This document shows, one piece after another, positions 1-17,018 of a DNA stretch of 18,277 nt (the first letter of the stretch is position 1; each line of letters opens with the position of its first letter). Below the pieces are notes generated by a model. The model worked only from the letters and a program-made list of their open reading frames with translations, had not been told where the DNA came from and made no database searches. The position numbers and the translations under genes are program-made. Origin of the DNA: a virus (taxonomy: Duplodnaviria; Heunggongvirae; Uroviricota; Caudoviricetes); IMG/VR virus record IMGVR_UViG_3300031993_006620; one strand, written 5' to 3'.

Positions 1-372
1 ATGATTCTGAAGGCAACCAAGAAACCCGTCACGGTCGATTGCGTCAAGTGGGACGGCACTAACAATGACGAGATCACCAATTTCTGCGGCAAGGACAACT
101 GCTCGTTCGAGCTGGACACCCACGCGTACGACGCCGGCGTCGCGCCACCGAGATGGAACCTCACCATCCACACTCTCGAAGGGGACCACTTTGCCCTGGA
201 AGGCGACTATATCATCAAGGGGGTCAAAGGGGAGTTCTATCCGTGCAAGCCGGACATCTTCGAGCAGACCTACAACATACACAGCCCGGACGGCAAGATG
301 TCGACAAATCCAGCCGTGGGGGCGATAGCATCGCTGTTGAAGATAATGCACAAAGTGTTTTTCACCAAGTAG
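1..372 (+). CDS. Conserved phage hypothetical protein (KKPV...TLEG...GDYIIKGVKGEFYPCKPDIF family)
   Basis: 123-aa ORF. Motifs KKPVTVDCVKW, TLEG and GDYIIKGVKGEFYPCKPDIFEQTY match a widespread small phage protein family of unknown function. Confidence 0.85.
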   Translation: MILKATKKPVTVDCVKWDGTNNDEITNFCGKDNCSFELDTHAYDAGVAPPRWNLTIHTLEGDHFALEGDYIIKGVKGEFYPCKPDIFEQTYNIHSPDGKMSTNPAVGAIASLLKIMHKVFFTK

Positions 373-1354: not shown

Positions 1355-2899
1355 ATGGCACCCAGAGTGAAAATCTACGAAGAAAATGAACTCTTCCACG
1401 CAGGCGAATATCTCAAGGTTCTTGAGGGTTCGTCCCATCAGCCCGAGGAAAACGTCCTCAGGATTATTAAGGAGCTGTTTACTCTTCGTAAGGCGGCCAT
1501 CGCGTCCAAGTACGCGACACTCACCTTTACGGGCATGGTGTGCGACACCCAAGCAACTCTGGAAGTCTTTTTCCACGACCGCCATCGCAGCAGATGGCAG
1601 ATTACCGTGACGGCTTACGTCGGCGACTACAAGAAGAGCATCGAGGATATCGAATACTGCCTCAGCATCGGGTTCCCGGACTTTATGGATTGGGTCAAGA
1701 GTGTCATCCCCTACAAGAGGAACCTTCCGTTGGAACCGGGGCAGAACGCAGCTCCCGAACTTTGGTACGAGACCGAACCCGGCAAGAAGTTCATATCGCA
1801 GATGAAGGAAATCGGATTCGTCTCTAACTTGGATAGCAAGTATGGATATTACACTCCACTGGAGTTGGGCAAGAAGGCGCACGACAAGCTCGTTCCGCTC
1901 GTGTACAACGACGACCTCGGGCACTTCCGCCTTGCCGACCCCGATCATGATGTGAACGGATCTGTCGGTATCAAGATGAACGGAAAGGAGGCGAGAGTTT
2001 GGTTATATACAAGCGTGTCGGTAATTATGGAAAAACAGTTCAACAGTCCGATCCACATATTTGACCCTGACGCCGGTATGGAACCGGACAAGTTCGTCGA
2101 GGAAGTGAAGAAACTCTTGAAGTTCAACGAAGACCGTATCGACAAGATTGCCGCAGATAACGGCGGTCTCACTTGGAAAGGAATCGACTTCTCTACTCAG
2201 TGTCACGACAAGTGCGCCCGTCCGGAAGGTTTCACTAAGCTTCCTAAAAAAGACCGAGACCGAATCAACGAGCACTTGGCGAAGTTCAACGATAAGCGTT
2301 TGAGCGAATATGACGAGTTTTTCAAGAAATCCAAGTTCGCCAACCTCTACAACTATATCAAGGAACATGGGGAAATATCACTATACCCCAGCCAGTACGG
2401 AAACGAGCACCACATCGAGTTCAGGATTCCGCTCGTCCTTGAAGAGCCGATTAACTACGGGGAAAGTTTCAAGGCACACAACGTCTCGATTACCGGCGGC
2501 ATCTACGTCAAAGACAAACAATATGAAAGCTGGTCGGGCGTCAAGTACTATCCGGATTCCGTCAGAATACATATACCGGTCTGCTACTACACCGACAAAG
2601 GCGATTTCGCAAGCTGGGAGGAGGCCATTGCCGCCGGTAGCAATACTGAATACGGCGGAGCTTGCTATATCGATGGATGCAAGGTTCCTCGCGGCAAAAG
2701 CACTTTCTCTAGTCTCTACTTCAACCAACACTGGAACGACACTTCGTACATCAGCGACGAAGAGTTGAAACGCTTCGAATACATCCTTATGAACGTCAAG
2801 GAAGACTACGGGCGGTACCTCGTCGCCTGCCATTTGATCGAACCCGGACGCATTCTTAAACAGGAAGTATTAAAACAATCGAGCGTGGCTGGATTTTAA
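1355..2899 (+). CDS. Large hypothetical protein (514 aa)
   Basis: Long ORF. Start revised to ATG 1355 behind GGAGG (1346-1350). No family recognised. Confidence 0.8.
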   Translation: MAPRVKIYEENELFHAGEYLKVLEGSSHQPEENVLRIIKELFTLRKAAIASKYATLTFTGMVCDTQATLEVFFHDRHRSRWQITVTAYVGDYKKSIEDIEYCLSIGFPDFMDWVKSVIPYKRNLPLEPGQNAAPELWYETEPGKKFISQMKEIGFVSNLDSKYGYYTPLELGKKAHDKLVPLVYNDDLGHFRLADPDHDVNGSVGIKMNGKEARVWLYTSVSVIMEKQFNSPIHIFDPDAGMEPDKFVEEVKKLLKFNEDRIDKIAADNGGLTWKGIDFSTQCHDKCARPEGFTKLPKKDRDRINEHLAKFNDKRLSEYDEFFKKSKFANLYNYIKEHGEISLYPSQYGNEHHIEFRIPLVLEEPINYGESFKAHNVSITGGIYVKDKQYESWSGVKYYPDSVRIHIPVCYYTDKGDFASWEEAIAAGSNTEYGGACYIDGCKVPRGKSTFSSLYFNQHWNDTSYISDEELKRFEYILMNVKEDYGRYLVACHLIEPGRILKQEVLKQSSVAGF

Positions 2900-2981
2900 C
2901 CAACATCTGAGTCCAATAAGGATATTCCGCACTCTCCTACAGTATTTAACTGCATTAACACTTGTGCTACACGCTCAACTG

Positions 2982-5373: not shown

Positions 5374-5841
5374 ATGGCTAGGAACCGCAAGCTGGCTGGT
5401 TCCATTATGGATGCCAACTTCGGTCGAATCCACGAACAACTTGAGTATAAATGTAAGTGGAATAATATCCAGTTAGTGAAGGCTCCGCAATTCTATCCGT
5501 CTAGCCAGATATGCTCTGAATGCGGTTGCTTCCAAAAGAAAGATTTGAAACTCACCGACCGTGAATGGACTTGTCCGCACTGTGGATGCCATCATGACCG
5601 AGATGTAAATGCTGCCAGAAACCTTCGGTTTTATGGCTTGTGGCTGTACGGCTTCGTGCAGTCCACTCCTACGGCGAGATACGCCGCTAACGCTTGCCTC
5701 GACGGTAAATGCCGTAGGGAAGGTAATGGCTCCGAGCCATACCCCAGAGACTTGAGGTTGCAGTTCTTTGAAACACAAGAACAGTGCAAGTCGCTGAAGC
5801 AAGAAATCACTAATACATATTTAATTGGTAGAAATGTGTAG
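5374..5841 (+). pseudogene. tnpB: 5'-truncated TnpB (IS200/IS605 or IS607 family): Zn finger + RuvC-III + C-terminal tail
   Basis: KLAGSIMDANF...LEYK, PSSQICSECG...WTCPHCG and HDRDVNAARNL are TnpB C-terminal signatures. The ORF starts just after where the RuvC-II EDL motif should be, and the HTH/WED/RuvC-I regions are absent. Confidence 0.9.
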
Positions 5842-5860
5842 AAATGATTTATCGGAACAG
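5660..5860 (+). ncRNA. Candidate TnpB omega-RNA scaffold
   Basis: Stems CCTACGGC/GCCGTAGG, ATGGCT/AGCCAT and TACATATTT/AAATGTGTA overlap the tnpB 3' end, where omega-RNAs are known to be encoded. Boundaries are approximate. Confidence 0.5.
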
Positions 5861-6191
5861 CCTGGATGTGATATGTTCGGAACCGGTGCAATGGGTGTCC
5901 GAGTATCGCGTCCCCGTGGTCCACGGAAAGATCCTGGACTGGTGCCATTACGACGGCGACCCCGGTATCATGGTCGACAAGGGTGAAGTCGAGCGCATGG
6001 TGCGCGACTATGTTTTAGCTCCATGGGCATACTGCATCGACGTCGGAGTGCTGGGTACCGGGGAGACCGCGCTCGTGGAAGTGAACGACGCTTTCAGCGT
6101 CGGGATGTACTCTATGAGCCCCGTGGTCTACGGCGACCTGCTGACGACCAGGTGGCAACAGCTGACCTTCGGGGAATCGTCTGGCCAGTAA
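5844..6191 (+). pseudogene. C-terminal half of an ATP-grasp protein (DUF4343/R2K-like)
   Basis: CSEPVQWVSEYR, AYCIDVGV and LVEVNDAFSVG...RWQQL match the ATP-grasp C-terminal lobe. The N-terminal half is missing. Confidence 0.7.
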
Positions 6192-6200
6192 CTATCCGGT

Positions 6201-6476
6201 TCAGTCTTTCGACAGCTTCCGCACCATCTCCACCACGTCCTCGTATCGGACGTACAGCCCGTCCCTGCACTTGTGCATGCTGGAAAGCGTATGTGGTTTA
6301 ATTCCAAACAGCTTGTCACCTACCACGTTACAGACCTGCGGATCGTAACGGGCGAGCCTCTTCACGCGCTCATCGAGCTCGGCGATGATAGATGACGCGT
6401 AGAACGAGCGCCAGAAGTTCTTGGGTAGCTTGGGTAGCTTCACGTCTTCAGGAACGAGTTCGGTATCGGTCGCCAT
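6201..6476 (-). CDS. Small hypothetical phage protein (91 aa)
   Basis: GAGGT SD. RYD...M...DGLYVRYEDV motif is typical of small phage proteins. Contains a 9-bp tandem TTGGGTAGC x2 (LPKLPK). Confidence 0.75.
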   Translation of the reverse strand: MATDTELVPEDVKLPKLPKNFWRSFYASSIIAELDERVKRLARYDPQVCNVVGDKLFGIKPHTLSSMHKCRDGLYVRYEDVVEMVRKLSKD

Positions 6477-6497
6477 AGAATTACCTCTAGTAGTTGA
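6445..6497. repeat. Direct repeat copy 1 (53 bp)
   Basis: 48/53 identical to 7952-8004 with a perfect 30-bp core (6451-6480 = 7958-7987). Confidence 0.95.
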
Positions 6498-7947: not shown

Positions 7948-7983
7948 TTACTCTTCTGGAACGAGTTCGGTATCGGTCGCCAT
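7948..7983 (-). pseudogene. 11-codon duplicated gene start MATDTELVPEE*
   Basis: Same SD and first ten residues as 6201..6476, followed by TAA. Confidence 0.8.
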
Positions 7984-8004
7984 AGAACTACCTCCAGTGG
8001 TCGA
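7952..8004. repeat. Direct repeat copy 2 (53 bp)
   Basis: Partner of 6445-6497. The copies are 1507 bp apart. Confidence 0.95.
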
Positions 8005-8698
8005 CGTTGAAATCCTTGAACAGGGTAGCATAGGCCTGTTCCAGCGTAATTCCTCCAGGTACGATATTCATATCTTCCAGCGTGGGCAGCTTGTATTCAA
8101 TGAACTCACCGAGGTCAGCGTCGTATCCCCATACTTGGACCGATATGATATTGAAATCGCAGCTCGGGTTGAGTATGCGCCCATACATGTATGACGCGAG
8201 CGCGTTCTGTATCAGGGGGACGTCGTCCCACTTGGCATAGAAGCTCAGTTCCCTGTACTTTCCGCTCATGAGGCTGAACCTGCCCAGTTCCTCCCTGCTC
8301 GGCTTTCCCGGCTTGCGGACGGACGAAATCACGATATTCTTCCGGTCGTTCTGGTCTATGTGGAATTCCGCGACATAGAACGAACCTTCATTGTGCGGAA
8401 CCGTCTTGGACTCTACCGTGAACTCCAGCTTTACTTCGGGGTACGTGATGGTGAGGGTGTCAATCTCCCCAGGATTGATCATGACCTTCTCGGCTGTTCC
8501 GCCGGGTAACACCAATATGACCGCGGCGAAGTCTTCCGAATTGCTCCATGCTCTTGACTGGACGGCCCCTTCTACCACCGTCCCATCCTTTTTTATGATG
8601 GTCAGGATTTCTCCTATGATGAATAACGGAAAGGGTTTCCCATCGCGTATGGAAAGTTCGCCTTCCCATACCAGTTTGTCTTCTCTGTATACCTTCAT
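7988..8698 (-). CDS. Hypothetical protein (236 aa), probably leaderless
   Basis: Start revised to ATG 8698, which lies 6 nt after TATATT of the motif at 8705-8714. No SD. Confidence 0.75.
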   Translation of the reverse strand: MKVYREDKLVWEGELSIRDGKPFPLFIIGEILTIIKKDGTVVEGAVQSRAWSNSEDFAAVILVLPGGTAEKVMINPGEIDTLTITYPEVKLEFTVESKTVPHNEGSFYVAEFHIDQNDRKNIVISSVRKPGKPSREELGRFSLMSGKYRELSFYAKWDDVPLIQNALASYMYGRILNPSCDFNIISVQVWGYDADLGEFIEYKLPTLEDMNIVPGGITLEQAYATLFKDFNVDHWR

Positions 8699-8704
8699 GC
8701 CACT

Positions 8705-8714
8705 AATATAGCAA
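8705..8714 (-). promoter_or_regulatory. TTGCTATATT promoter, leaderless geometry
   Basis: TTGCTATATT-AGTGGC-ATG. Confidence 0.75.
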
Positions 8715-8871
8715 CAAATGCTCAATCTGGCTACTTTCGCGGGTGTCCATGCATTCGAGACTATGGTACCCATAGTTCCGGACTTGCGAAGGGTTGCCTA
8801 CTTGCTCGAACCGGTGCGTAGTTGCCACGTACGGGCTGATGTGCGTCCAGTCGGTCTCCGAGAGTATGTAG
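8715..8871 (-). ncRNA. Candidate structured RNA or long 5' leader
   Basis: Lies downstream of TTGCTATAAA (8878-8887) with no nearby ATG. Four GCAA and one GAAA potential loops, plus hairpin ACTATGG/CCATAGT. Confidence 0.35.
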
Positions 8872-8877
8872 CAGTGC

Positions 8878-8887
8878 TTTATAGCAA
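8878..8887 (-). promoter_or_regulatory. TTGCTATAAA promoter-motif variant
   Basis: Matches the recurring motif and points left into the 8715-8871 segment. Confidence 0.55.
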
Positions 8888-8950
8888 ATTCGTATCGGCG
8901 TGTCTACGCCTCGCTACGATCCGGTTAAGCGACTGTATAAACTTGGTGGT

Positions 8951-9694
8951 ATGAGCGAAAGACTAGACTGCATAATTGCAATGACTTCGTGGAAGGGCCG
9001 CATCAATAGCGAAATCCTTCGATTAACTCTTTTTAGTTTTATAAAGCAGCCCAAGGTGTGTAACTTTAAGGTTATCTTGGTGCTTAGTACGGACGAGTTT
9101 CCTATGAAGGAAGTTGAGCTGCCCGCCGAACTGGTTACTGTTATAAAATTAGCCCCGAACGCTGAGTTGATGTGGACTGGTGCGAATACTAAGGCTTACA
9201 AAAAATACTTCCCAGTGGCTCGTGCTTACCCAGATGTTCCTATCATCACGGTCGACGACGATTCCCCGGCGAAGAACAATTTCTTGACTACGCTGTGGGA
9301 ACTCCATACCAAGGATCCAGATCGAGTTATCTATGGGTATAACCACGTATTACCCGATTTAACACTTAACGGCTGTATCGACAATGTTCGGTATGGTGTT
9401 GCCCTTTATCCGCCTAATTCACTTTATCCGTTGGATGAGACTTTTGGTCATGAGTTCTTTAAGGATATGGATGACGAATTTATGCGGCTGTTGCATGTTC
9501 TGAATGGTACACGATATAGAGCGGTTGACGCTTATTCGATCTTGCATATGCAAGCTAGTAATCAAGATGTCGCTATGGGTCGAATTATGAGTGACCAGTG
9601 GGGGCAGATTTCATCTATGTGGAATAAGCTGTGGAAGGTTTCCCCAGAATTGAAGAAGATTTGGGATAAGAATAAATGTATTCAAAATTACTAA
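8951..9694 (+). CDS. GT-A fold glycosyltransferase (GT2-like)
   Basis: AMTSWKGRI, VILVLSTDEFP, YKKYFP and IITVDDD (DxD metal-binding) motifs match glycosyltransferases of capsule loci. Start revised to ATG 8951 (GGTGGT upstream), 247 aa. Confidence 0.8.
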   Translation: MSERLDCIIAMTSWKGRINSEILRLTLFSFIKQPKVCNFKVILVLSTDEFPMKEVELPAELVTVIKLAPNAELMWTGANTKAYKKYFPVARAYPDVPIITVDDDSPAKNNFLTTLWELHTKDPDRVIYGYNHVLPDLTLNGCIDNVRYGVALYPPNSLYPLDETFGHEFFKDMDDEFMRLLHVLNGTRYRAVDAYSILHMQASNQDVAMGRIMSDQWGQISSMWNKLWKVSPELKKIWDKNKCIQNY

Positions 9695-9724
9695 CATCAT
9701 TCAACCTATTTATCCGAGGATAAT

Positions 9725-11497
9725 ATGTCTAAAATTATGCAAGTCTATGCCGCATACAATCGTCATGATATCGATCGGTTTAATAGTAGCAGCGGGGGTA
9801 TGTTTTCAGCTTTTGCCAGCAAAGTTTTAGCCGATGATGGGTACGTATTCGGCGCGGTGTTCGATACGGACTTTAGTGTGGTTATGAAAGGAACTAACTC
9901 CGATATCACGCCTATGATGGGGTCGAAATATTTGAGGGCTAAACCTGGTACCTCATTCAAGGATTGCGAAGACTTATTGGAAGCTGGTACGACGGTGTTA
10001 TACACGGGAACCCCGTGCCAAATATATGGTTTAAAAGCCTTCCTAAAGAAAGACTATGAAAACTTGTACACGGTCGATATATTTTGCCATGGAACACCGA
10101 ATGCGAACGCATGGCAACGCTATTTAAGGGAACTTGGAAAACCAATTGAATCAGTTAATTTTCGTGACAAGCGAAACGGGTGGACAAATTATGGTATTTC
10201 GATTAAGTTCAAGGATGGAACCGAGCTATACGAATCCCATAATACTAATCGTTATATACAGTTATTCTTAAATAATACCATTTTAAATAAGTCGTGTTTC
10301 GAGTGTAAATATAGAGCGAACAGCGTGGCCGATATTAGTATTGGCGACCTGTGGGGTTACACACAACTCGGTGACAAAGTGCCTAGCGACAATCGAGGGT
10401 TATCCGCTGTCGTCATTCATACTGAGAAGGGTCAGAAACTGGTTGAGTTGGCTGATATCAACAAGGTACAAATTGATTATTCCTTTGTTACCAAGAACAA
10501 CTGTATTGATATGAAACTGACGGTTCCACCATATCATTCATTTTACACTAAACTCACAACACAACCGAAAATTGGCATCGTCACGGATCAAGTGTACAAA
10601 AATGTTGGCGGAATTTTACAGGCGGTGTCGCTTTCCAGCATAATTCAAGAATATACTGGATTCCAACCAGTATTTCCTAACCAAATTGACAATGGGCATC
10701 TTAAATACTTTGATAAGCACTGTAAATGGGAGTCTAACTCAATAAATGATAGTTACCAGGTGATGGTGGTTGGTAGCGATCAAGTATGGAATCGACTTTA
10801 CTGTACGCCGGTACCATTTAATGATAAATATTGTATTCATCCAACCATCAAAAAAGTTGTCTATGCAGCTTCGTTCGGTCATCACGACTACTTATATAGT
10901 GATGACGAAATACGTCGTATTAGAGAGTCGCTTAAACAAGTCAAGTACATATCGACTCGCGAGCTGTTTGGTCAGGTAATGACCCGGCGATGGTTCCACG
11001 TCGACTCGACGCCGGTGCTCGATCCGACGATGTTGCACGACGCTAATTTCTACTTAAATACTATCAATGAGTCACCTTGCCTTGATAATGACGGTATATT
11101 TGCCTATATACTTGACGACAGTACCGAATGGCAGTCTTCATTGAACAAACTAGCCAATACACTAGGAACGCAAGTTCTTCCATTTGATGGGAGCTGTGAG
11201 CAGTTTATCAGCAATATGAACAAAGCTAAGTATGTCATAACCGATTCATACCACGGTACTGTATTCAGTTTGATATTCAACAAGCCATTCATAACGTATC
11301 GTAACGTCGCTCGTGGGAACGACAGGTTCGATGACTTGTGCTTCCGGTTCAAACCAATTAGGAACCAGTTCGTAACCAAAGTCGCTGATATATGTAACAC
11401 AGACTTGCTGAATGCGACACCTAACGTCCAGAATTATATCTTGTACTTCCGCCAAGGAAGCCTAGATTTCTTACGGCGTGGATTGATGCAGATTTAG
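9725..11497 (+). CDS. Fusion: coenzyme F420 hydrogenase beta-subunit-like (FrhB/FdhB) domain + polysaccharide pyruvyltransferase domain
   Basis: N-half: SSSGG, GSKY, GTPCQ, DIFCHGTP, SCFECKY, ADISIGDLWG. C-half from ~10560: KIGIVT...NVGGILQA, VVGSDQVWN, YAASFG, ISTRE, DPTML, TDSYHGTVFSLIFNKPF. GAGG SD. Confidence 0.88.
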   Translation: MSKIMQVYAAYNRHDIDRFNSSSGGMFSAFASKVLADDGYVFGAVFDTDFSVVMKGTNSDITPMMGSKYLRAKPGTSFKDCEDLLEAGTTVLYTGTPCQIYGLKAFLKKDYENLYTVDIFCHGTPNANAWQRYLRELGKPIESVNFRDKRNGWTNYGISIKFKDGTELYESHNTNRYIQLFLNNTILNKSCFECKYRANSVADISIGDLWGYTQLGDKVPSDNRGLSAVVIHTEKGQKLVELADINKVQIDYSFVTKNNCIDMKLTVPPYHSFYTKLTTQPKIGIVTDQVYKNVGGILQAVSLSSIIQEYTGFQPVFPNQIDNGHLKYFDKHCKWESNSINDSYQVMVVGSDQVWNRLYCTPVPFNDKYCIHPTIKKVVYAASFGHHDYLYSDDEIRRIRESLKQVKYISTRELFGQVMTRRWFHVDSTPVLDPTMLHDANFYLNTINESPCLDNDGIFAYILDDSTEWQSSLNKLANTLGTQVLPFDGSCEQFISNMNKAKYVITDSYHGTVFSLIFNKPFITYRNVARGNDRFDDLCFRFKPIRNQFVTKVADICNTDLLNATPNVQNYILYFRQGSLDFLRRGLMQI

Positions 11498-12075
11498 TAT
11501 AGCATTAATACTTGTATATGGTGCTCATTGATTGATTCTACAAATCCTTGCAGAACGTCAATCAATTTAGTGCAATCCGATATGAGAGTGTTTCGATCGT
11601 TGTCGGAAAGCTCCTCGATGTTATATTTAGTTTTTGCACAAGTTTCAATGTGTTTAGATAATTGTTCGAGTAACGTATGAATTGTCGTTGAATGTTTCTT
11701 TGCTATTCGAATGCATCTGTGTAAAAAATCAAAGCCGGTCAAATCAACTCTGGTCTCGTACTCTCTAATACCGTCAATAATCTCATTTGCCGATACGTGC
11801 TTGGTTCGAGCTTTATCACGAAGCTCGGTTAAAAAATCATGTAATGCACCGTAACCGGTTTCCTTAAAGAACCAAGCCATATCATACAACTGTCGGTAAG
11901 CAATGTGTTTCAATATATTTTTTATTCGTGTTCCAATACTGGTTAAATATGATACCGCCAGTTTTACCGCTTCTATCGGGCCAGTCCATTTTGATTTACA
12001 AATAAGATATACACAGATTACAAAGCATAATGCACCTATTGAAAATTTACCTAATTCGGTTAAATTGATATCCAT
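11494..12075 (-). CDS. Hypothetical protein with N-terminal membrane anchor (193 aa)
   Basis: Hydrophobic FSIGALCFVICVYLIC followed by a helical region. AT-rich. Its stop overlaps the convergent stop (TTAG 11494-11497). Confidence 0.75.
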   Translation of the reverse strand: MDINLTELGKFSIGALCFVICVYLICKSKWTGPIEAVKLAVSYLTSIGTRIKNILKHIAYRQLYDMAWFFKETGYGALHDFLTELRDKARTKHVSANEIIDGIREYETRVDLTGFDFLHRCIRIAKKHSTTIHTLLEQLSKHIETCAKTKYNIEELSDNDRNTLISDCTKLIDVLQGFVESINEHHIQVLMLY

Positions 12076-12090
12076 TTGGGCATTCCTTTA

Positions 12091-12133
12091 AATATTGACA
12101 TACTTCATTACATGTCAACATTTAATATAGCAA
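12091..12133 (-). promoter_or_regulatory. TTGCTATATT promoter with adjacent inverted repeat
   Basis: Motif at 12124-12133. Inverted repeat AATATTGACAT (12091-12101) / ATGTCAACATT (12112-12122), 10/11 complementary. Confidence 0.65.
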
Positions 12134-12309
12134 AAATTAAGTATTTTGCAACTCACTCAACGTTCCGACCGCTTACCAAGGACGAGCTGGTTATTCTTAT
12201 TCACAAATCCTCGAAAAATGAGCACTGACTTCCACGATCAGTTTATACCGGGCACGCGCCATATATAAATATATGCGTGGCCATGCCACCGGTTGCCCTG
12301 TGTCAAAAA

Positions 12310-12319
12310 TTGCTATATA
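12310..12319 (+). promoter_or_regulatory. TTGCTATATA promoter, leaderless geometry
   Basis: TTGCTATATA-TGGATC-ATG(12326). Confidence 0.75.
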
Positions 12320-12325
12320 TGGATC

Positions 12326-13204
12326 ATGGAATACAATAATGTGACTCTCTTTGGCAACGAATACCAAGTGTTTTACGGGTCGTGCTGCGCAAGCAACTCC
12401 CCTAAGCGTACCCTATATGTTGAGTTTACCGACGTATGTAATGCCCGTTGCCCATTTTGCTCGGCGCAACACGGCACGAGGGTACTATCGCCGAAATCGT
12501 TGGAGAAATGCTTGGCCGAACTCGTGTCAGCCGACGTGATTGACCGCGTATCCGTCACCGGAGGCGAACCGCTTATCGTCCCCGACCATATCACCCTGTC
12601 CAATCTGTTCGACGTATTGGACAACGGCGGACTGGACTACTATGCCGTGACGACCAACGGTAGATACCTGGCGAAAAACTTCGTACTTCTTGAAGGCCTG
12701 GCCAAATTGAAATACCTGAACGTCAGCCGTCACCATTACGACGATGCGGTGAATCGCGACATATTCGGTGACAGGGATATTCCCGGGCTGGACACGGTGG
12801 CCGCCATATTGCACATGCTGAAACCGGATGTAATACGTAGCCGGTTGAATTGCACATTGTATACGGCTGACATCAACCCGGAATGGGTACAGTCTTACAT
12901 AAGGTCGGCGTCGGAACATGAAATCAAATCCGTACTATTCCGCCCCAACTACTTCGGCACACGGAATTCCGCCATATCGAATTGGTTCGCCAATAAACTT
13001 ACAGGTCGCAAGGATTCAACCAAGTGCCACTGCATGCAGGGTTGCGTGGGGAATGTCATGGTGGAATACCGTGATGTTGACGTTGCGCTTGAACGGAAAA
13101 TTGAAATGTCCGGTCAATACATAAGAAACTTCGTATTGCATGCCGACGGCCGGCTTACCGGTGGATGGTCAAACGAGTCGATAGTATTACACGATTTTGG
13201 GTAA
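12326..13204 (+). CDS. Radical SAM enzyme, substrate unknown
   Basis: CNARCPFC (CxxxCxxC), VTGGEP, TTNG and NVSRHHYDD motifs. Start revised to ATG 12326, 292 aa. Confidence 0.92.
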   Translation: MEYNNVTLFGNEYQVFYGSCCASNSPKRTLYVEFTDVCNARCPFCSAQHGTRVLSPKSLEKCLAELVSADVIDRVSVTGGEPLIVPDHITLSNLFDVLDNGGLDYYAVTTNGRYLAKNFVLLEGLAKLKYLNVSRHHYDDAVNRDIFGDRDIPGLDTVAAILHMLKPDVIRSRLNCTLYTADINPEWVQSYIRSASEHEIKSVLFRPNYFGTRNSAISNWFANKLTGRKDSTKCHCMQGCVGNVMVEYRDVDVALERKIEMSGQYIRNFVLHADGRLTGGWSNESIVLHDFG

Positions 13205-13269
13205 GCCGTACATTTCACAACCGTGGCCGTAAGTTGCACTACAAACCGGCTTTTCCTATCTTTCCGGTT

Positions 13270-16154: not shown

Positions 16155-17018
16155 CTATTTCAGCATCTTTACCAGTTCGAGCTGTTCCGTCAAGAACTTC
16201 CGGAAAGCCTCGACAGTAACCTTGTAGTAGTTCGCCTTCGACGAGCGAGCCTTGACCGGTTCGCCCATAAGGTTCTTCACGTACATAGTGTAGGAGAAGC
16301 CGCCGTGGTCGAAATACAAGTCGAAGCTACAACGGCGGCTCTTTACGTACTTAATGCGCTGCTTCTCGGTCATAGGACGCCAGAGAACGCCGCAATAGTT
16401 CAGTACGGTGTCGAGGCCGAACGCCTTTTCGAGACTGCCCACACCTTTGCAAATCCGGCCCGGGAATATGCATTCTTTAGGGAACATCTCGTACACCATC
16501 TCGAGTGCCATCTCGAACGACATCGGCGGCTTGAACTCCGTGGAAGTGCTGAACTTGATGGCGTGCTGCGGACAGTTCTCGACGATTTCGCGAATTTCCT
16601 TGTCGAACTTCTCGTATCCGTTCTCGCGCATAACACGGACAAAGTCATAGCGAACTCCGGTATTGTTGTACTTGCCTATGTCCGGTTCGGAACGGAACAT
16701 AGCCTTGCACTTGTCGCTGCACATTCCACATTCCCCGCAAACCTTCTCGTTACGGACCTTGTGGTCGATCCAGACCTTGGTTATGGGCTTGTCGGGCGGT
16801 TCCCCCCGAGTGAACTTGATACATTCGCCCGGACAGGATACGACCGCCTCCACGATATCGCTGTCATAGGTGCCGTCAAACTTCTTCAGGATAACCTCGG
16901 CAACGTCGTCAACGCGGAACACTTCCTCGGCACAGCATTCGCACGCGCCGCACGAGCAACAGTTCTCTATAGGATTGTCGATCCATACTTTGTTAATGAT
17001 TGTGTTAATGTTACTCAT
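16155..17018 (-). CDS. Tandem ferredoxin-domain protein with unknown C-terminal domain
   Basis: Two repeats: KVWID...CCSCGACECC...CPGECIKF and KVWID...CGECGMCSDKC...CPQHAIKF, each with CxxCxxC plus a distal CP. Followed by ~140 unassigned residues. ATGA-coupled to the upstream gene. Confidence 0.85.
   Translation of the reverse strand: MSNINTIINKVWIDNPIENCCSCGACECCAEEVFRVDDVAEVILKKFDGTYDSDIVEAVVSCPGECIKFTRGEPPDKPITKVWIDHKVRNEKVCGECGMCSDKCKAMFRSEPDIGKYNNTGVRYDFVRVMRENGYEKFDKEIREIVENCPQHAIKFSTSTEFKPPMSFEMALEMVYEMFPKECIFPGRICKGVGSLEKAFGLDTVLNYCGVLWRPMTEKQRIKYVKSRRCSFDLYFDHGGFSYTMYVKNLMGEPVKARSSKANYYKVTVEAFRKFLTEQLELVKMLK

What the first reader, a model, noticed from the sequence alone, without database searches (positions are those of the whole stretch)
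8951..11497. Phage-like element carries a glycan-modification module with a single-chain FrhB-like reductase/pyruvyltransferase
Seen: a GT-A glycosyltransferase followed by one 590-aa ORF joining an FrhB/FdhB-like domain to a polysaccharide pyruvyltransferase, with no stop or frameshift at the ~10560 junction. Known: these two families usually occur as separate neighbouring genes in bacterial capsule/EPS loci, FrhB domains bind FAD and an Fe-S cluster, and pyruvyltransferases use PEP. Inference: the fusion could perform a MurA/MurB-like two-step reaction (enolpyruvyl transfer, then flavin reduction to a lactyl ether) on a sugar installed by the adjacent GT. No flippase, polymerase or sugar-synthesis genes are present in the window, so it looks like a minimal decoration kit. 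Possible targets are host surface receptor (superinfection exclusion), virion proteins or glycosylated phage DNA.
Basis: partly seen in the sequence, partly recalled or inferred. Interest (0 to 1): 0.85.

Follow-up and report, generated by a model that had tools for sequence, protein, structure and literature searches.

The report
Phage cassette: glycosyltransferase plus reductase-pyruvyltransferase fusion
A 5-kb gene cassette that moves between large cattle-gut phages carries a sugar-adding enzyme and a two-domain enzyme that probably attaches lactic-acid (or pyruvate) groups to sugars. The two-domain enzyme is common in bacteria, but this copy belongs to a phage-only branch whose target is still unknown.

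Summary
ORF 9725-11497 is one uninterrupted 590-aa protein with an FrhB-type flavin/[4Fe-4S] reductase half and a PS_pyruv_trans half. The upstream ORF 8951-9694 is a GT-A glycosyltransferase, recognisable only by fold. The context is viral: an identical cassette lies in a 253-kb IMG/VR phage (CheckV 99%).

The rarity claim does not hold. The fusion is very common in cellular polysaccharide loci (at least 555 species genomes, thousands of protein clusters), and this scan has met it several times on other DNA.

New here:
- All six relatives whose context I checked are phage-borne. They fall in one clade of 24 sequences that excludes all 15 cellular rows (SH-aLRT 99).
- The fusion travels with a new small GT-A family.
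- The 5.2-kb low-GC cassette is about 98% identical between two otherwise unrelated jumbo phages.
- In two diverged T4-like, TGA=W phages the fusion sits between the major capsid and neck genes.

The MurA/MurB-like lactyl-ether reading is plausible. Klebsiella K22, K37 and K66 carry a pyruvyltransferase plus a flavoreductase gene, yet their capsules have no pyruvate ketal, and K22/K37 carry carboxyethyl ethers. The chemistry and the acceptor (virion protein glycan or host envelope glycan) remain untested.

The parts
7958..13208 (.). Mobile low-GC cassette shared with an otherwise unrelated 253-kb phage (G001 = IMGVR_UViG_3300037454_000906)
   Evidence: blastn gives 97.6-98.6% identity over about 5.0-5.3 kb, and nothing else but three short pieces of 60-115 nt. 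tblastn of 25 window ORFs against G001 finds only the cassette proteins, TnpB and one 38% match. GC is about 40% against about 51%.
7988..8773 (-). 261-aa ORFan inside the cassette, divergent from the GT gene. Function unknown.
   Evidence: No Pfam, PHROG or NCBIfam hit and no Atlas lead. It is 91-92% identical in G001.
8951..9694 (+). 247-aa GT-A fold glycosyltransferase of a new small family, with DXD = D102-D103-D104
   Evidence: 32 homologues, none with a Pfam domain. AF2 pLDDT is 93.3. Foldseek matches TarP/RmlT/TarS, viral GTs and AFDB GT2 clusters at TM 0.75. A profile hit covers the DXD regions of heparosan synthase. Paralogues lie next to the fusion in phage loci L084/L085, L087, L090 and L109.
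9725..11497 (+). 590-aa single-chain FrhB-like reductase / PS_pyruv_trans fusion (P0002)
   Evidence: AF2 pLDDT 90.5, pTM 0.84.
9725..10480 (+). FrhB/FdhB-type flavin + [4Fe-4S] reductase half (residues 1-252). It lacks the N-terminal 2x[4Fe-4S] ferredoxin domain found in the sister subclade.
   Evidence: Foldseek matches 8rja_E, FrhB, Fsr and HCAR at E 1e-11 to 1e-9. Profile hits to 8rja_E, Fsr 7npa/7np8 and HCAR 5dqr align the GG, PCQ and CxxC motifs. S22, S23, G24, G25, C81, C98, C121, C191 and C194 are invariant, and S21 completes the SSSGG motif in the window protein. The Fer4 domains of relatives are listed.
10562..11497 (+). Pyruvyltransferase-family half (residues 280-590, GT-B-like)
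   Evidence: Pfam PF04230. The best solved match for this half is Pvg1p 5ax7, E 8e-7. R412, D507, S508, H510, G511, R530 and R534 are invariant. The motif T-D-S-[YF]-H-G replaces the R-x-H of ketal-forming WcaK, CsaB and Pvg1p.
11494..12075 (-). 193-aa helical protein with an N-terminal hydrophobic segment, convergent with the fusion and overlapping it by 4 nt. Function unknown.
   Evidence: Only a sub-threshold Ferritin match (20.4 bits, cut-off 24.5). Hydrophobic stretch at residues 7-25. Atlas gave nothing usable. It is 100% identical in G001.
12293..13204 (+). 303-aa radical SAM enzyme at the right end of the cassette. Subfamily unassigned.
   Evidence: Pfam Radical_SAM at 5.1e-11. NCBIfam gives only far-sub-threshold MoaA, viperin and QueE-like hits. 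It is not conserved next to the fusion in other phage loci.
7952..8004 (.). Second copy of a 53-nt direct repeat (first copy 6445-6497) at the left cassette border. Possible recombination joint.
   Evidence: 91% identical copies 1507 nt apart that bracket the DUF5758 gene. The shared region with G001 starts at 7958-7963.
16155..17018 (-). 287-aa protein with an N-terminal single-cluster ferredoxin domain. A speculative electron donor for the reductase half, outside the cassette.
   Evidence: Pfam Fer4_13 at 2.3e-6. A distant homologue lies 9 kb from the fusion in phage locus L087. It is absent from G001, so the link is weak.

Best explanation
Window 8951-11497 is a two-gene glycan-decoration operon. 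It sits in a 5.2-kb low-GC cassette that is exchanged between virulent jumbo phages of the bovine gut.

Shown:
- Gene 1 is a soluble GT-A glycosyltransferase of a previously unnamed family.
- Gene 2 is a soluble single chain. A complete FrhB-type module (flavin-binding GG motif plus conserved cysteines for one [4Fe-4S] cluster) is fused to a PS_pyruv_trans-family domain.
- The gene belongs to a phage-only branch of a family that is otherwise widespread in cellular polysaccharide loci.

Inferred:
- The GT-A puts a sugar from a host nucleotide sugar on an acceptor that is reachable in the cytoplasm.
- The C-terminal domain transfers the enolpyruvyl group of PEP to a hydroxyl of that glycan.
- The N-terminal flavo-iron-sulfur domain takes electrons from a ferredoxin-type donor and reduces the enol ether to a 1-carboxyethyl (lactyl) ether. 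This is analogous to MurA/MurB and is built from unrelated folds.

The acceptor is not established. I favour a glycan on phage virion proteins (about 0.4) over a host lipid-linked or wall-polymer glycan (about 0.35), because related phages keep the fusion and its glycosyltransferases between the capsid and neck genes and none of the islands has a flippase, polymerase or priming transferase.
For: Architecture and integrity.

Folds: FrhB/Fsr/HCAR for the N-terminal half and Pvg1p for the C-terminal half. GT-A for gene 1.

Cofactor motifs are invariant across 21 homologues, so the reductase is under selection as an enzyme.

From established knowledge: FrhB-family members outside methanogenesis include ferredoxin-dependent substrate reductases, namely HCAR and the 8-vinyl reductase BciB. 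C=C reduction is therefore within the family's chemistry.

Gene and structure correlation in Klebsiella (PMC4616057):
- K22 and K37 uniquely share pyruvyl transferase wclZ plus a 'nitroreductase'.
- K66 uniquely has pyruvyltransferase wcqF plus a 'coenzyme F420 hydrogenase'.
- All three are listed as having pyruvyltransferase genes but capsules without pyruvylation.
- K22 is 'another glycan containing 4-O-[(S)-1-carboxyethyl]-D-glucuronic acid' (title cited in PMC3857182).

The PEP-site motif differs from ketal-forming enzymes: S-[YF]-H instead of R-x-H.

Viral context:
- IMG/VR contig with CheckV 99% completeness.
- Baseplate wedge hit at 2.9e-26.
- No integrase.

Phage clade: SH-aLRT 99. Phage contexts were checked.

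Conserved partners in phage loci: the same GT family, UDP-galactopyranose mutase, a GNAT and other GTs.

Head-module position in two diverged T4-like phages.

Both proteins lack membrane segments.
Against: - No enzyme of this fused family has been assayed. Every characterised PS_pyruv_trans member (CsaB, WcaK, Pvg1p, PssM) makes a ketal, not an ether.
- The Klebsiella correlation rests on three serotypes. For K66 the lactyl-type sugar is only my recollection and I could not verify it here.
- The E. coli and Shigella lactyl-sugar gene clusters could not be examined with the tools.
- In the window's own lineage the cassette is about 45 kb from the structural genes of G001.
- The best solved matches of the GT are wall-teichoic-acid glycosyltransferases, including prophage TarP. 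That fits a host-envelope target equally well.
- The electron donor is unknown, and the window protein lacks the ferredoxin domain of its nearest subclade.
Confidence: 0.5

Rival explanations
1. Ordinary ketal pyruvylation. The C-terminal domain makes a 4,6- or 3,4-pyruvate ketal like CsaB or WcaK. The FrhB-like half does something else, such as redox sensing, reduction of a different group like a keto-sugar, or a structural role.
For: All biochemically studied PF04230 enzymes form ketals (PMC6801904 and PMC10435577). The Pfam match is well above threshold and the fold matches Pvg1p.
Against: The flavin and Fe-S motifs are invariant across fused relatives in phages and cells. The pairing of PvT with a flavoreductase recurs with two unrelated reductase families, FrhB-like and nitroreductase, in Klebsiella types whose capsules lack pyruvate ketals. 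The R of the R-x-H PEP motif is replaced in this family.
Confidence: 0.25
2. The target is the host envelope. The cassette modifies a host lipid-linked or wall polymer (teichoic acid, capsule or O-antigen precursor) at the inner face of the membrane during infection. This would block superinfection or adsorption of progeny to debris, in the manner of TarP or Gtr systems. The chemistry is as in the best explanation.
For: The best solved matches of the GT are TarP, RmlT and TarS, which glycosylate teichoic acid in the cytoplasm. Natural acceptors of CsaB and WcaK are undecaprenyl-linked glycans (PMC10435577). The absence of a flippase or polymerase would be explained by use of the host's own.
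Against: G001, which carries the identical cassette, has no tyrosine integrase. Its only resolvase gene lies a few kb from TnpB and looks to me like part of an IS607-type element. Serotype conversion by a prophage is therefore unlikely. Related phages place the fusion and GTs between Gp23 and gp13. GT-A matches at TM 0.5-0.6 are generic for the fold.
Confidence: 0.35
3. The module decorates glycosylated phage DNA, that is, a hypermodified base bearing a sugar.
For: The enzymes are cytoplasmic and phage-encoded. A MazG-like nucleotide pyrophosphohydrolase lies at 1-372. G001 encodes a thymidylate-synthase-family protein.
Against: The Thymidylat_synt match is full-length at 421.8 bits, which looks to me like a genuine ThyA rather than a hydroxymethylase. 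The partners in related phages (UDP-Galp mutase, GT8, GT92, Stealth, UDP-glucose dehydrogenase, GNAT) are those of protein or polysaccharide glycans. To my knowledge no PF04230 member acts on nucleic acid.
Confidence: 0.05

Closest known systems
Uncharacterised cellular FrhB-like / polysaccharide pyruvyl transferase fusions and gene pairs in EPS, CPS and O-antigen loci (for example Klebsiella K66 HG203 + wcqF; Akkermansia, Alphaproteobacteria, Clostridia and Bacteroidales loci)
   Same: The same two Pfam families with the same invariant motifs, and often the same domain order.
   Different: The window protein belongs to a separate clade that holds all six phage-context-checked rows and none of the 15 cellular rows. 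Identity to species genomes is at most about 42%. It lacks the N-terminal 2x[4Fe-4S] domain. It sits in a phage with a novel GT-A partner, not in a locus with Wzx/Wzy and many GTs.
MurA / MurB (UDP-GlcNAc enolpyruvyl transferase and UDP-enolpyruvyl-GlcNAc reductase)
   Same: The proposed reaction logic is the same: PEP-dependent enolpyruvyl ether formation, then flavin-dependent reduction to a lactyl ether.
   Different: There is no homology. No EPSP_synthase or FAD_binding_4/MurB_C domain was found. The folds here are GT-B-like and FrhB-like. The donor is probably ferredoxin and Fe-S rather than NADPH. The acceptor is probably a glycan rather than a nucleotide sugar.
Ketal pyruvyltransferases CsaB, WcaK, Pvg1p (PF04230)
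   Same: Same family and fold. The conserved His (H510) and an Arg (R412) are candidates for the PEP-site H308 and R148 of CsaB.
   Different: The R306/R337 of the R-x-H motif is Ser here. The domain is covalently linked to a reductase. The product is predicted to be an ether, not a ketal.
Ferredoxin-dependent FrhB-family substrate reductases: HCAR (5dqr), and BciB from my own knowledge
   Same: FrhB fold with flavin and Fe-S, working outside F420 metabolism.
   Different: Different substrates (chlorophyll side chains). HCAR has extra clusters. No fusion to a transferase.
Phage- and virus-encoded glycan systems: prophage TarP, mycobacteriophage virion glycosylation and chlorovirus capsid glycans (the last two from my own knowledge)
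   Same: Virus-encoded soluble GT-A enzymes that act in the cytoplasm without a flippase or polymerase. The best PDB match is TarP, and viral GTs reach TM up to 0.76.
   Different: To my knowledge none of these systems includes a pyruvyl or lactyl-adding enzyme. Among 50,697 deposited phage records only weak (below 40% identity), mostly partial matches occur, and no named cultured phage has the fusion.

Membership tests
PS_pyruv_trans (PF04230) | Profile match above the curated threshold | tested here: met
   67.1 bits against a cut-off of 25.3, residues 293-525 covering profile positions 1-276 of 280.
PS_pyruv_trans (PF04230) | GT-B-like two-lobe fold as in Pvg1p | tested here: met
   Foldseek match to 5ax7_A at E 8.1e-7, TM by target 0.53.
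PS_pyruv_trans (PF04230) | PEP-site residues R148, R306-x-H308 and K328 (CsaB numbering) | tested here: inconclusive
   The His is invariant (H510) and an invariant Arg (R412) is present. The R of R-x-H is Ser (S508) in 43 of 47 family members, against R in WcaK, CsaB and Pvg1p. No residue-level structural superposition was possible.
PS_pyruv_trans (PF04230) | Forms a pyruvate ketal from PEP | not testable with these tools
   Needs an enzyme assay.
FrhB/FdhB family (PF04432 + PF04422) | C-terminal domain profile match | tested here: met
   90.5 bits against a cut-off of 23.3, residues 90-244.
FrhB/FdhB family (PF04432 + PF04422) | N-terminal flavin-binding domain with a GG motif | tested here: met
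   Pfam PF04422 was not reported for the window protein. A profile of the family aligns positions 11-102 to 8rja_E and 20-262 to Fsr, including the GG motif. S22-S23-G24-G25 are invariant. The fold match covers about 280-300 residues.
FrhB/FdhB family (PF04432 + PF04422) | Cysteine ligands for a [4Fe-4S] cluster (PCQ and CxxC motifs) | tested here: met
   C98 (PCQ), C121, C191 and C194 are invariant. PCQ and CxxC align with Fsr. Cluster binding itself was not tested.
FrhB/FdhB family (PF04432 + PF04422) | Uses coenzyme F420 | not testable with these tools
   By inference it is unlikely, because most carriers are gut bacteria that are not known to make F420. HCAR shows that the fold works with ferredoxin.
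GT-A glycosyltransferases (GT2-like) | Rossmann-like GT-A fold | tested here: met
   pLDDT 93.3. TarP, RmlT and TarS at E 1e-7. AFDB GT2 clusters at TM 0.75-0.76 and E down to 2e-16.
GT-A glycosyltransferases (GT2-like) | DXD metal and nucleotide-sugar motif | tested here: met
   D102-D103-D104 are invariant in 33 sequences. They align to the DDD of heparosan synthase.
GT-A glycosyltransferases (GT2-like) | Match to a curated GT sequence family (for example PF00535) | tested here: not met
   No Pfam family at E<=10, and no NCBIfam or PHROG family.
MurA/MurB pathway | EPSP-synthase-fold enolpyruvyl transferase and FAD_binding_4/MurB_C reductase | tested here: not met
   No such Pfam domains and the folds differ. 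This is a functional analogy only.
Prophage serotype-conversion modules (TarP or Gtr type) | Carried by a temperate phage or prophage with an integration module | tested here: not met
   No Phage_integrase match in the 99%-complete G001. The window's own phage is known only from fragments.

The most novel reading that the evidence does not exclude
A phage-specific lineage of reductase-pyruvyltransferase fusions, working with phage glycosyltransferases, builds an acidic (lactyl-ether or pyruvylated) glycan coat on virion proteins. In T4-like TGA=W phages it is encoded inside the head-gene module. In rumen jumbo phages it moves as a 5-kb cassette. This would be the first acidic non-sugar decoration of a phage virion glycan. 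It would also be a compact soluble system for showing how lactyl ethers other than muramic acid are made.
Probability: 0.2. Interest if true: 0.8.

Novelty: new variant of a known kind. Interest (0 to 1): 0.5.

Why it matters
Lactyl-ether (1-carboxyethyl) sugars occur in many bacterial capsules, O-antigens and rumen exopolysaccharides. In the papers I could search, no enzyme that makes them outside peptidoglycan has been characterised. The reductase-pyruvyltransferase family is the obvious candidate and is very widespread.

A 590-aa soluble, single-chain phage version without the extra ferredoxin domain is a convenient form to express and assay.

On the phage side, a conserved, horizontally exchanged glycan-decoration module would extend virion or infected-cell glycosylation beyond the few known cases. 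In some lineages it is wedged between capsid and neck genes. It could matter for phage adsorption, immune recognition or persistence in the gut and rumen.

The finding does not show a rare fusion. That part is ordinary.

Tried and rejected
- Near-identity DNA search of the whole window against 50,697 phage records: no match.
- No genome is held for the window.
- Terminase_6N and Terminase_6C searches on G001: no match. Phage nature was shown instead by a baseplate and a virion-protein PHROG hit.
- Literature searches (10 of 10 used) for FrhB or F420 with pyruvyl, lactyl or carboxyethyl terms found no paper that assigns a function to the fusion. 'FrhB' plus 'pyruvyl' returned zero papers.
- I could not verify the Klebsiella K66 sugar or the Butyrivibrio lactyl sugars that I recall. 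They are marked as memory only.
- I tried to reach E. coli O-antigen clusters of lactyl-bearing serogroups (O58, O69, O124, O146, O150; PMC7685785).
- BLASTP and hhalign of the PvT half against E. coli WcaK gave no usable alignment. A profile of the PvT half found no solved relative by sequence. The motif comparison was therefore done by eye.
- Atlas look-ups for the 193-aa and 261-aa cassette proteins gave nothing usable.
- Promoter and terminator scans were at chance level.
- No RNA holder was listed among public runs, so expression was not assessed.
- No complex prediction was run, because no binding claim is made.
Full report
**1. What is in the sequence**

The window (18,277 nt, about 51% GC) contains a low-GC island of about 40% between roughly 9.0 and 12.3 kb. 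Inside it, ORF 9725-11497 (+) reads through as 590 residues. It carries Pfam FrhB_FdhB_C at residues 90-244 (90.5 bits) and PS_pyruv_trans at residues 293-525 (67.1 bits).

The preceding ORF is best started at ATG 8951, giving 247 aa. The conserved first beta-strand lies upstream of the alternative ATG at 8981. A GGTGG precedes 8951. It is separated from the fusion by 30 nt that contain a GAGG ribosome-binding site.

This ORF has no hit in Pfam (even at E<=10), NCBIfam or PHROGs. It belongs to a small family of 32 database proteins, none with a Pfam domain. An AlphaFold model built on that family is confident (pLDDT 93.3, pTM 0.91) and is a GT-A fold:
- The best solved matches are the teichoic-acid glycosyltransferases TarP, RmlT and TarS (E about 1e-7, TM 0.5-0.6).
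- AlphaFold-DB GT2 clusters reach TM 0.75-0.76.
- Viral GTs reach TM up to 0.76.
- D102-D103-D104 is invariant and aligns with the DDD motifs of heparosan synthase.

**2. The fusion is not an assembly artefact**

The identical protein was called on JGI, ENA and Logan contigs. Contigs of four public runs cover the junction without any insertion or deletion. One of them is a 95-99% variant that spans 9172-10882. Relatives at 75%, 69% and 68% identity have the same length and domains.

**3. Both halves look catalytically competent**

A model of the whole protein is confident (pLDDT 90.5, pTM 0.84).

The N-terminal half matches FrhB subunits, FdhB-like subunits, the F420H2-oxidase domain of Fsr, and HCAR (E 1e-11 to 1e-9). 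A sequence profile finds 8rja_E, Fsr and HCAR and aligns the GG, PCQ and CxxC motifs. Across 21 homologues S22, S23, G24, G25, C81, C98, C121, C191 and C194 are invariant.

The best solved match of the C-terminal half is the yeast pyruvyltransferase Pvg1p. R412, D507, S508, H510, G511, R530 and R534 are invariant.

In CsaB the PEP site is R148, R306-x-H308 and K328, with R337-L-H339 as the equivalent in Pvg1p (PMC10435577). E. coli WcaK has G-T-R-L-H-S. The reductase-linked family has T-D-S-[YF]-H-G in 43 of 47 sequences examined. This is a family-specific change in the donor site. Its meaning is untested.

**4. How common is the fusion?**

It is very common.
- A word-indexed search scored 7,110 proteins at E<=1e-3 among 8,000 candidates. 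Almost all of the 120 best hits carry both Pfam families, many with an added N-terminal 2x[4Fe-4S] ferredoxin domain.
- An exhaustive HMMER search of 1.84 billion cluster representatives gave 26,150 hits at E<=1e-3 and 4,652 at E<=1e-30. The FrhB part lies either before or after the transferase part. Some of the weaker hits match one domain only.
The carriers include Bacteroidales, Akkermansia, Alphaproteobacteria, Clostridia, Melainabacteria, Brachyspira and Thermoplasmata.
- One bacterial example on a 1.5-Mb contig sits in a typical locus with seven glycosyltransferase genes.
- Of 18 cellular loci inspected, 10 are fused. In 8 (the Bacteroidales and one Ruminococcus) the match is split over two adjacent ORFs.

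The fusion in itself is not special. This scan has also flagged the fusion repeatedly on other DNA.

**5. The context is viral, and the phage copies form their own branch**

No genome is held for the window. The identical gene lies on IMG/VR contig IMGVR_UViG_3300037454_000906 (253,117 nt), rated 99% complete by CheckV. That contig has:
- a block of very large genes at 187-240 kb;
- a baseplate wedge hit (phrog_219, 2.9e-26) and a virion-protein hit;
- two tRNAs;
- no tyrosine integrase;
- a ThyA-type gene, one further GT2 and a UDP-galactopyranose mutase gene about 10 kb from the fusion.

The window's other ORFs are mostly ORFans. Recognisable ones are a MazG-like pyrophosphohydrolase, a TnpB fragment, an R2K ATP-grasp fragment, a DUF5758 protein and a ferredoxin-domain protein.

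The cassette DNA occurs at 0.99 of sampled words in two bovine gut metagenome runs from two studies. Either run may be the source of this DNA, so neither is independent support.

I checked the genomic context of relatives at 68%, 52%, 44%, 43% and 37% identity. All lie on phage-like contigs with dense small ORFans, TnpB genes and T4-type structural genes. Two more from the TGA=W subclade were checked afterwards.

In a maximum-likelihood tree of 39 fused proteins, the six rows whose phage context had been checked by then fall in one clade of 24 rows. That clade contains none of the 15 cellular rows (SH-aLRT 99). The other 18 rows of the clade were not context-checked when the tree was built. 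The nearest cellular neighbours are Firmicutes (Pseudobutyrivibrio, Eubacteriales).

Among 50,697 deposited phage records there are only 13 weak matches, all below 40% identity and mostly partial. Twelve are unannotated faecal fragments of 5-25 kb. No named cultured phage carries the fusion.

**6. The cassette is mobile**

The window and the 253-kb phage share 7958/7963-13208 at 97.6-98.6% nucleotide identity and essentially nothing else. Of 25 window proteins, only the cassette proteins, TnpB and one 38% match are found in that genome.

The cassette holds:
- the 261-aa ORFan (-);
- the GT-A (+);
- the fusion (+);
- a 193-aa helical protein with a hydrophobic N-terminus (-);
- a radical SAM enzyme (+).

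Its left border coincides with a 53-nt direct repeat (6445-6497 and 7952-8004, 91% identical) that brackets the DUF5758 gene. A TnpB gene lies about 0.9 kb from the cassette in the 253-kb phage, and a TnpB fragment lies 2 kb from it in the window.

Variant contigs in two further runs diverge from the window after 11360. This suggests another recombination point inside the 3' end of the fusion gene.

**7. Conserved partners**

The new GT-A family accompanies the fusion in divergent phage loci:
- 60% and 33% identical copies in L087;
- 41% and 37% in L084/L085;
- 37% in L090;
- two copies in L109;
- a 57-residue remnant beside a TnpB gene in L083.

Other recurrent neighbours are UDP-galactopyranose mutase (G001, L084/L085, L090), a DUF1919-like protein, a GNAT, a GT92 and several ORFan families.

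In two diverged T4-like phages whose genes need TGA=W (10 in-frame TGA in the fusion of L110; 32% GC), the order is as follows:
- L110: Portal_T4, prohead protease, Gp23 major capsid, one ORF (120 aa), fusion, a 258-aa DXD protein, gp13 neck protein.
- L112: Portal_T4, prohead protease, Gp23 major capsid, two ORFs (301 and 267 aa), fusion, a GT8, gp13 neck protein.

A third TGA=W phage places the fusion among GT2, UDP-glucose dehydrogenase, a cytidylyltransferase and a Stealth phosphotransferase.

None of these islands, and nothing in the window, encodes a Wzx- or Wzy-like polytopic protein or a priming phosphoglycosyl transferase (from the Pfam lists and a hydropathy scan). Both window enzymes are soluble.

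**8. Mechanism**

What is shown is the anatomy above. The chemistry is inferred.

A PS_pyruv_trans domain uses PEP. Ketal formation needs no redox step. A permanently attached flavo-Fe-S reductase under strong sequence constraint therefore calls for a reducible intermediate. The enolpyruvyl ether is the obvious one, and its reduction gives a lactyl (1-carboxyethyl) ether, as in MurA/MurB. The FrhB family includes ferredoxin-dependent reductases of small organic groups: HCAR, and from my own knowledge the 8-vinyl reductase BciB.

Independent support comes from published Klebsiella data:
- In the homology-group table of PMC4616057, K22 and K37 alone share pyruvyl transferase wclZ plus a 'nitroreductase'. 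K66 alone has pyruvyltransferase wcqF plus a 'coenzyme F420 hydrogenase'.
- The paper states that K8, K22, K37 and K66 have pyruvyl-transfer genes although their capsules are not pyruvylated.
- K22 is described as 'another glycan containing 4-O-[(S)-1-carboxyethyl]-D-glucuronic acid' (reference title). From memory, the earlier glycan was K37.
- A review of pyruvylated glycans does not list K22, K37 or K66.

My recollection that K66 and Butyrivibrio exopolysaccharides contain carboxyethyl sugars could not be checked.

E. coli O58, O69, O124, O146 and O150 carry lactyl groups (PMC7685785). [quoted passage not shown] I could not inspect those clusters.

Earlier notes of this scan reach the same reading on other genomes. 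They are not independent evidence.

I put the lactyl-ether chemistry at about 0.5 and a plain ketal at about 0.25.

**9. Target**

- DNA is the least likely, about 0.05. The partners are those of protein or polysaccharide glycans.
- Between virion and host envelope the evidence is indirect. The head-module position in two diverged phages, the absence of priming, flipping and polymerising genes, and the apparently virulent lifestyle favour virion-protein glycans. The TarP-, RmlT- and TarS-like fold and the lipid-linked acceptors of known pyruvyltransferases favour a host polymer.
- In the 253-kb phage the cassette is about 45 kb from the structural block, which is uninformative.

**10. Verdict**

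The fusion is a member of a large, uncharacterised but well-populated family. New here are the viral clade, its dedicated GT-A partner family, the near-identical cassette in unrelated rumen jumbo phages, and the capsid-adjacent position in T4-like recoded phages.

Novelty: a new variant of a known kind. Interest: 0.5.

Noticed in passing
window 6445-6497 and 7952-8004: A 53-nt direct repeat (91% identical) brackets the DUF5758 gene and coincides with the left border of the cassette. It contains a ribosome-binding site, an ATG and the first codons of a minus-strand gene. It may be a recombination joint for module shuffling.
   Followed up: partly
window 5374-5841 and 5844-6191: A C-terminal fragment of a TnpB (Cas12f1-like TNB domain) abuts a C-terminal fragment of an R2K ATP-grasp gene. 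This looks like an IS insertion or deletion scar. A full TnpB lies next to the same cassette in the 253-kb phage.
   Followed up: partly
window 2870-2978 and 5742-5856: Two short pieces (109 and 115 nt) are 94-96% identical to sites near the cassette in the 253-kb phage. They are possibly IS ends.
   Followed up: no
L110 8001-9890 and L112 9001-10878 (related phages): T4-like phages that need TGA=W (10 in-frame TGA; 32% GC) carry the fusion plus a glycosyltransferase between the Gp23 capsid gene and the gp13 neck gene.
   Followed up: partly
L111 (related TGA=W phage): The fusion lies in an island with GT2, UDP-glucose dehydrogenase, a cytidylyltransferase and a Stealth phosphotransferase. Next to it is a full NAD-salvage set: NAPRTase, NUDIX, PRPP synthase, NAD synthase and PARG.
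   Followed up: no
P0002 residues 506-511 (window 11240-11257): The pyruvyltransferase donor-site motif is T-D-S-[YF]-H-G in the reductase-linked family. Ketal-forming WcaK, CsaB and Pvg1p have R-x-H.
   Followed up: partly
window 11360 onward: Contigs of two other runs (95-99% variants) match up to 11360 and then continue with unlike sequence. This suggests a recombination breakpoint inside the 3' end of the fusion gene.
   Followed up: no
window 1-372: A MazG-like nucleotide pyrophosphohydrolase (phrog_419, phrog_4159) lies at the window edge. The source contig also has an RNA 2'-phosphotransferase (PTS_2-RNA) just upstream.
   Followed up: no
window 16155-17018: A 287-aa protein with an N-terminal single-cluster ferredoxin domain (Fer4_13). 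A distant homologue lies near the fusion in phage locus L087, but none is found in the 253-kb phage.
   Followed up: partly
L083 4810-5109: In the phage whose fusion is 68% identical, only a 57-residue remnant of the GT-A family survives, next to a TnpB gene. Two other ORFan families, shared with L084, lie upstream of the fusion instead.
   Followed up: no
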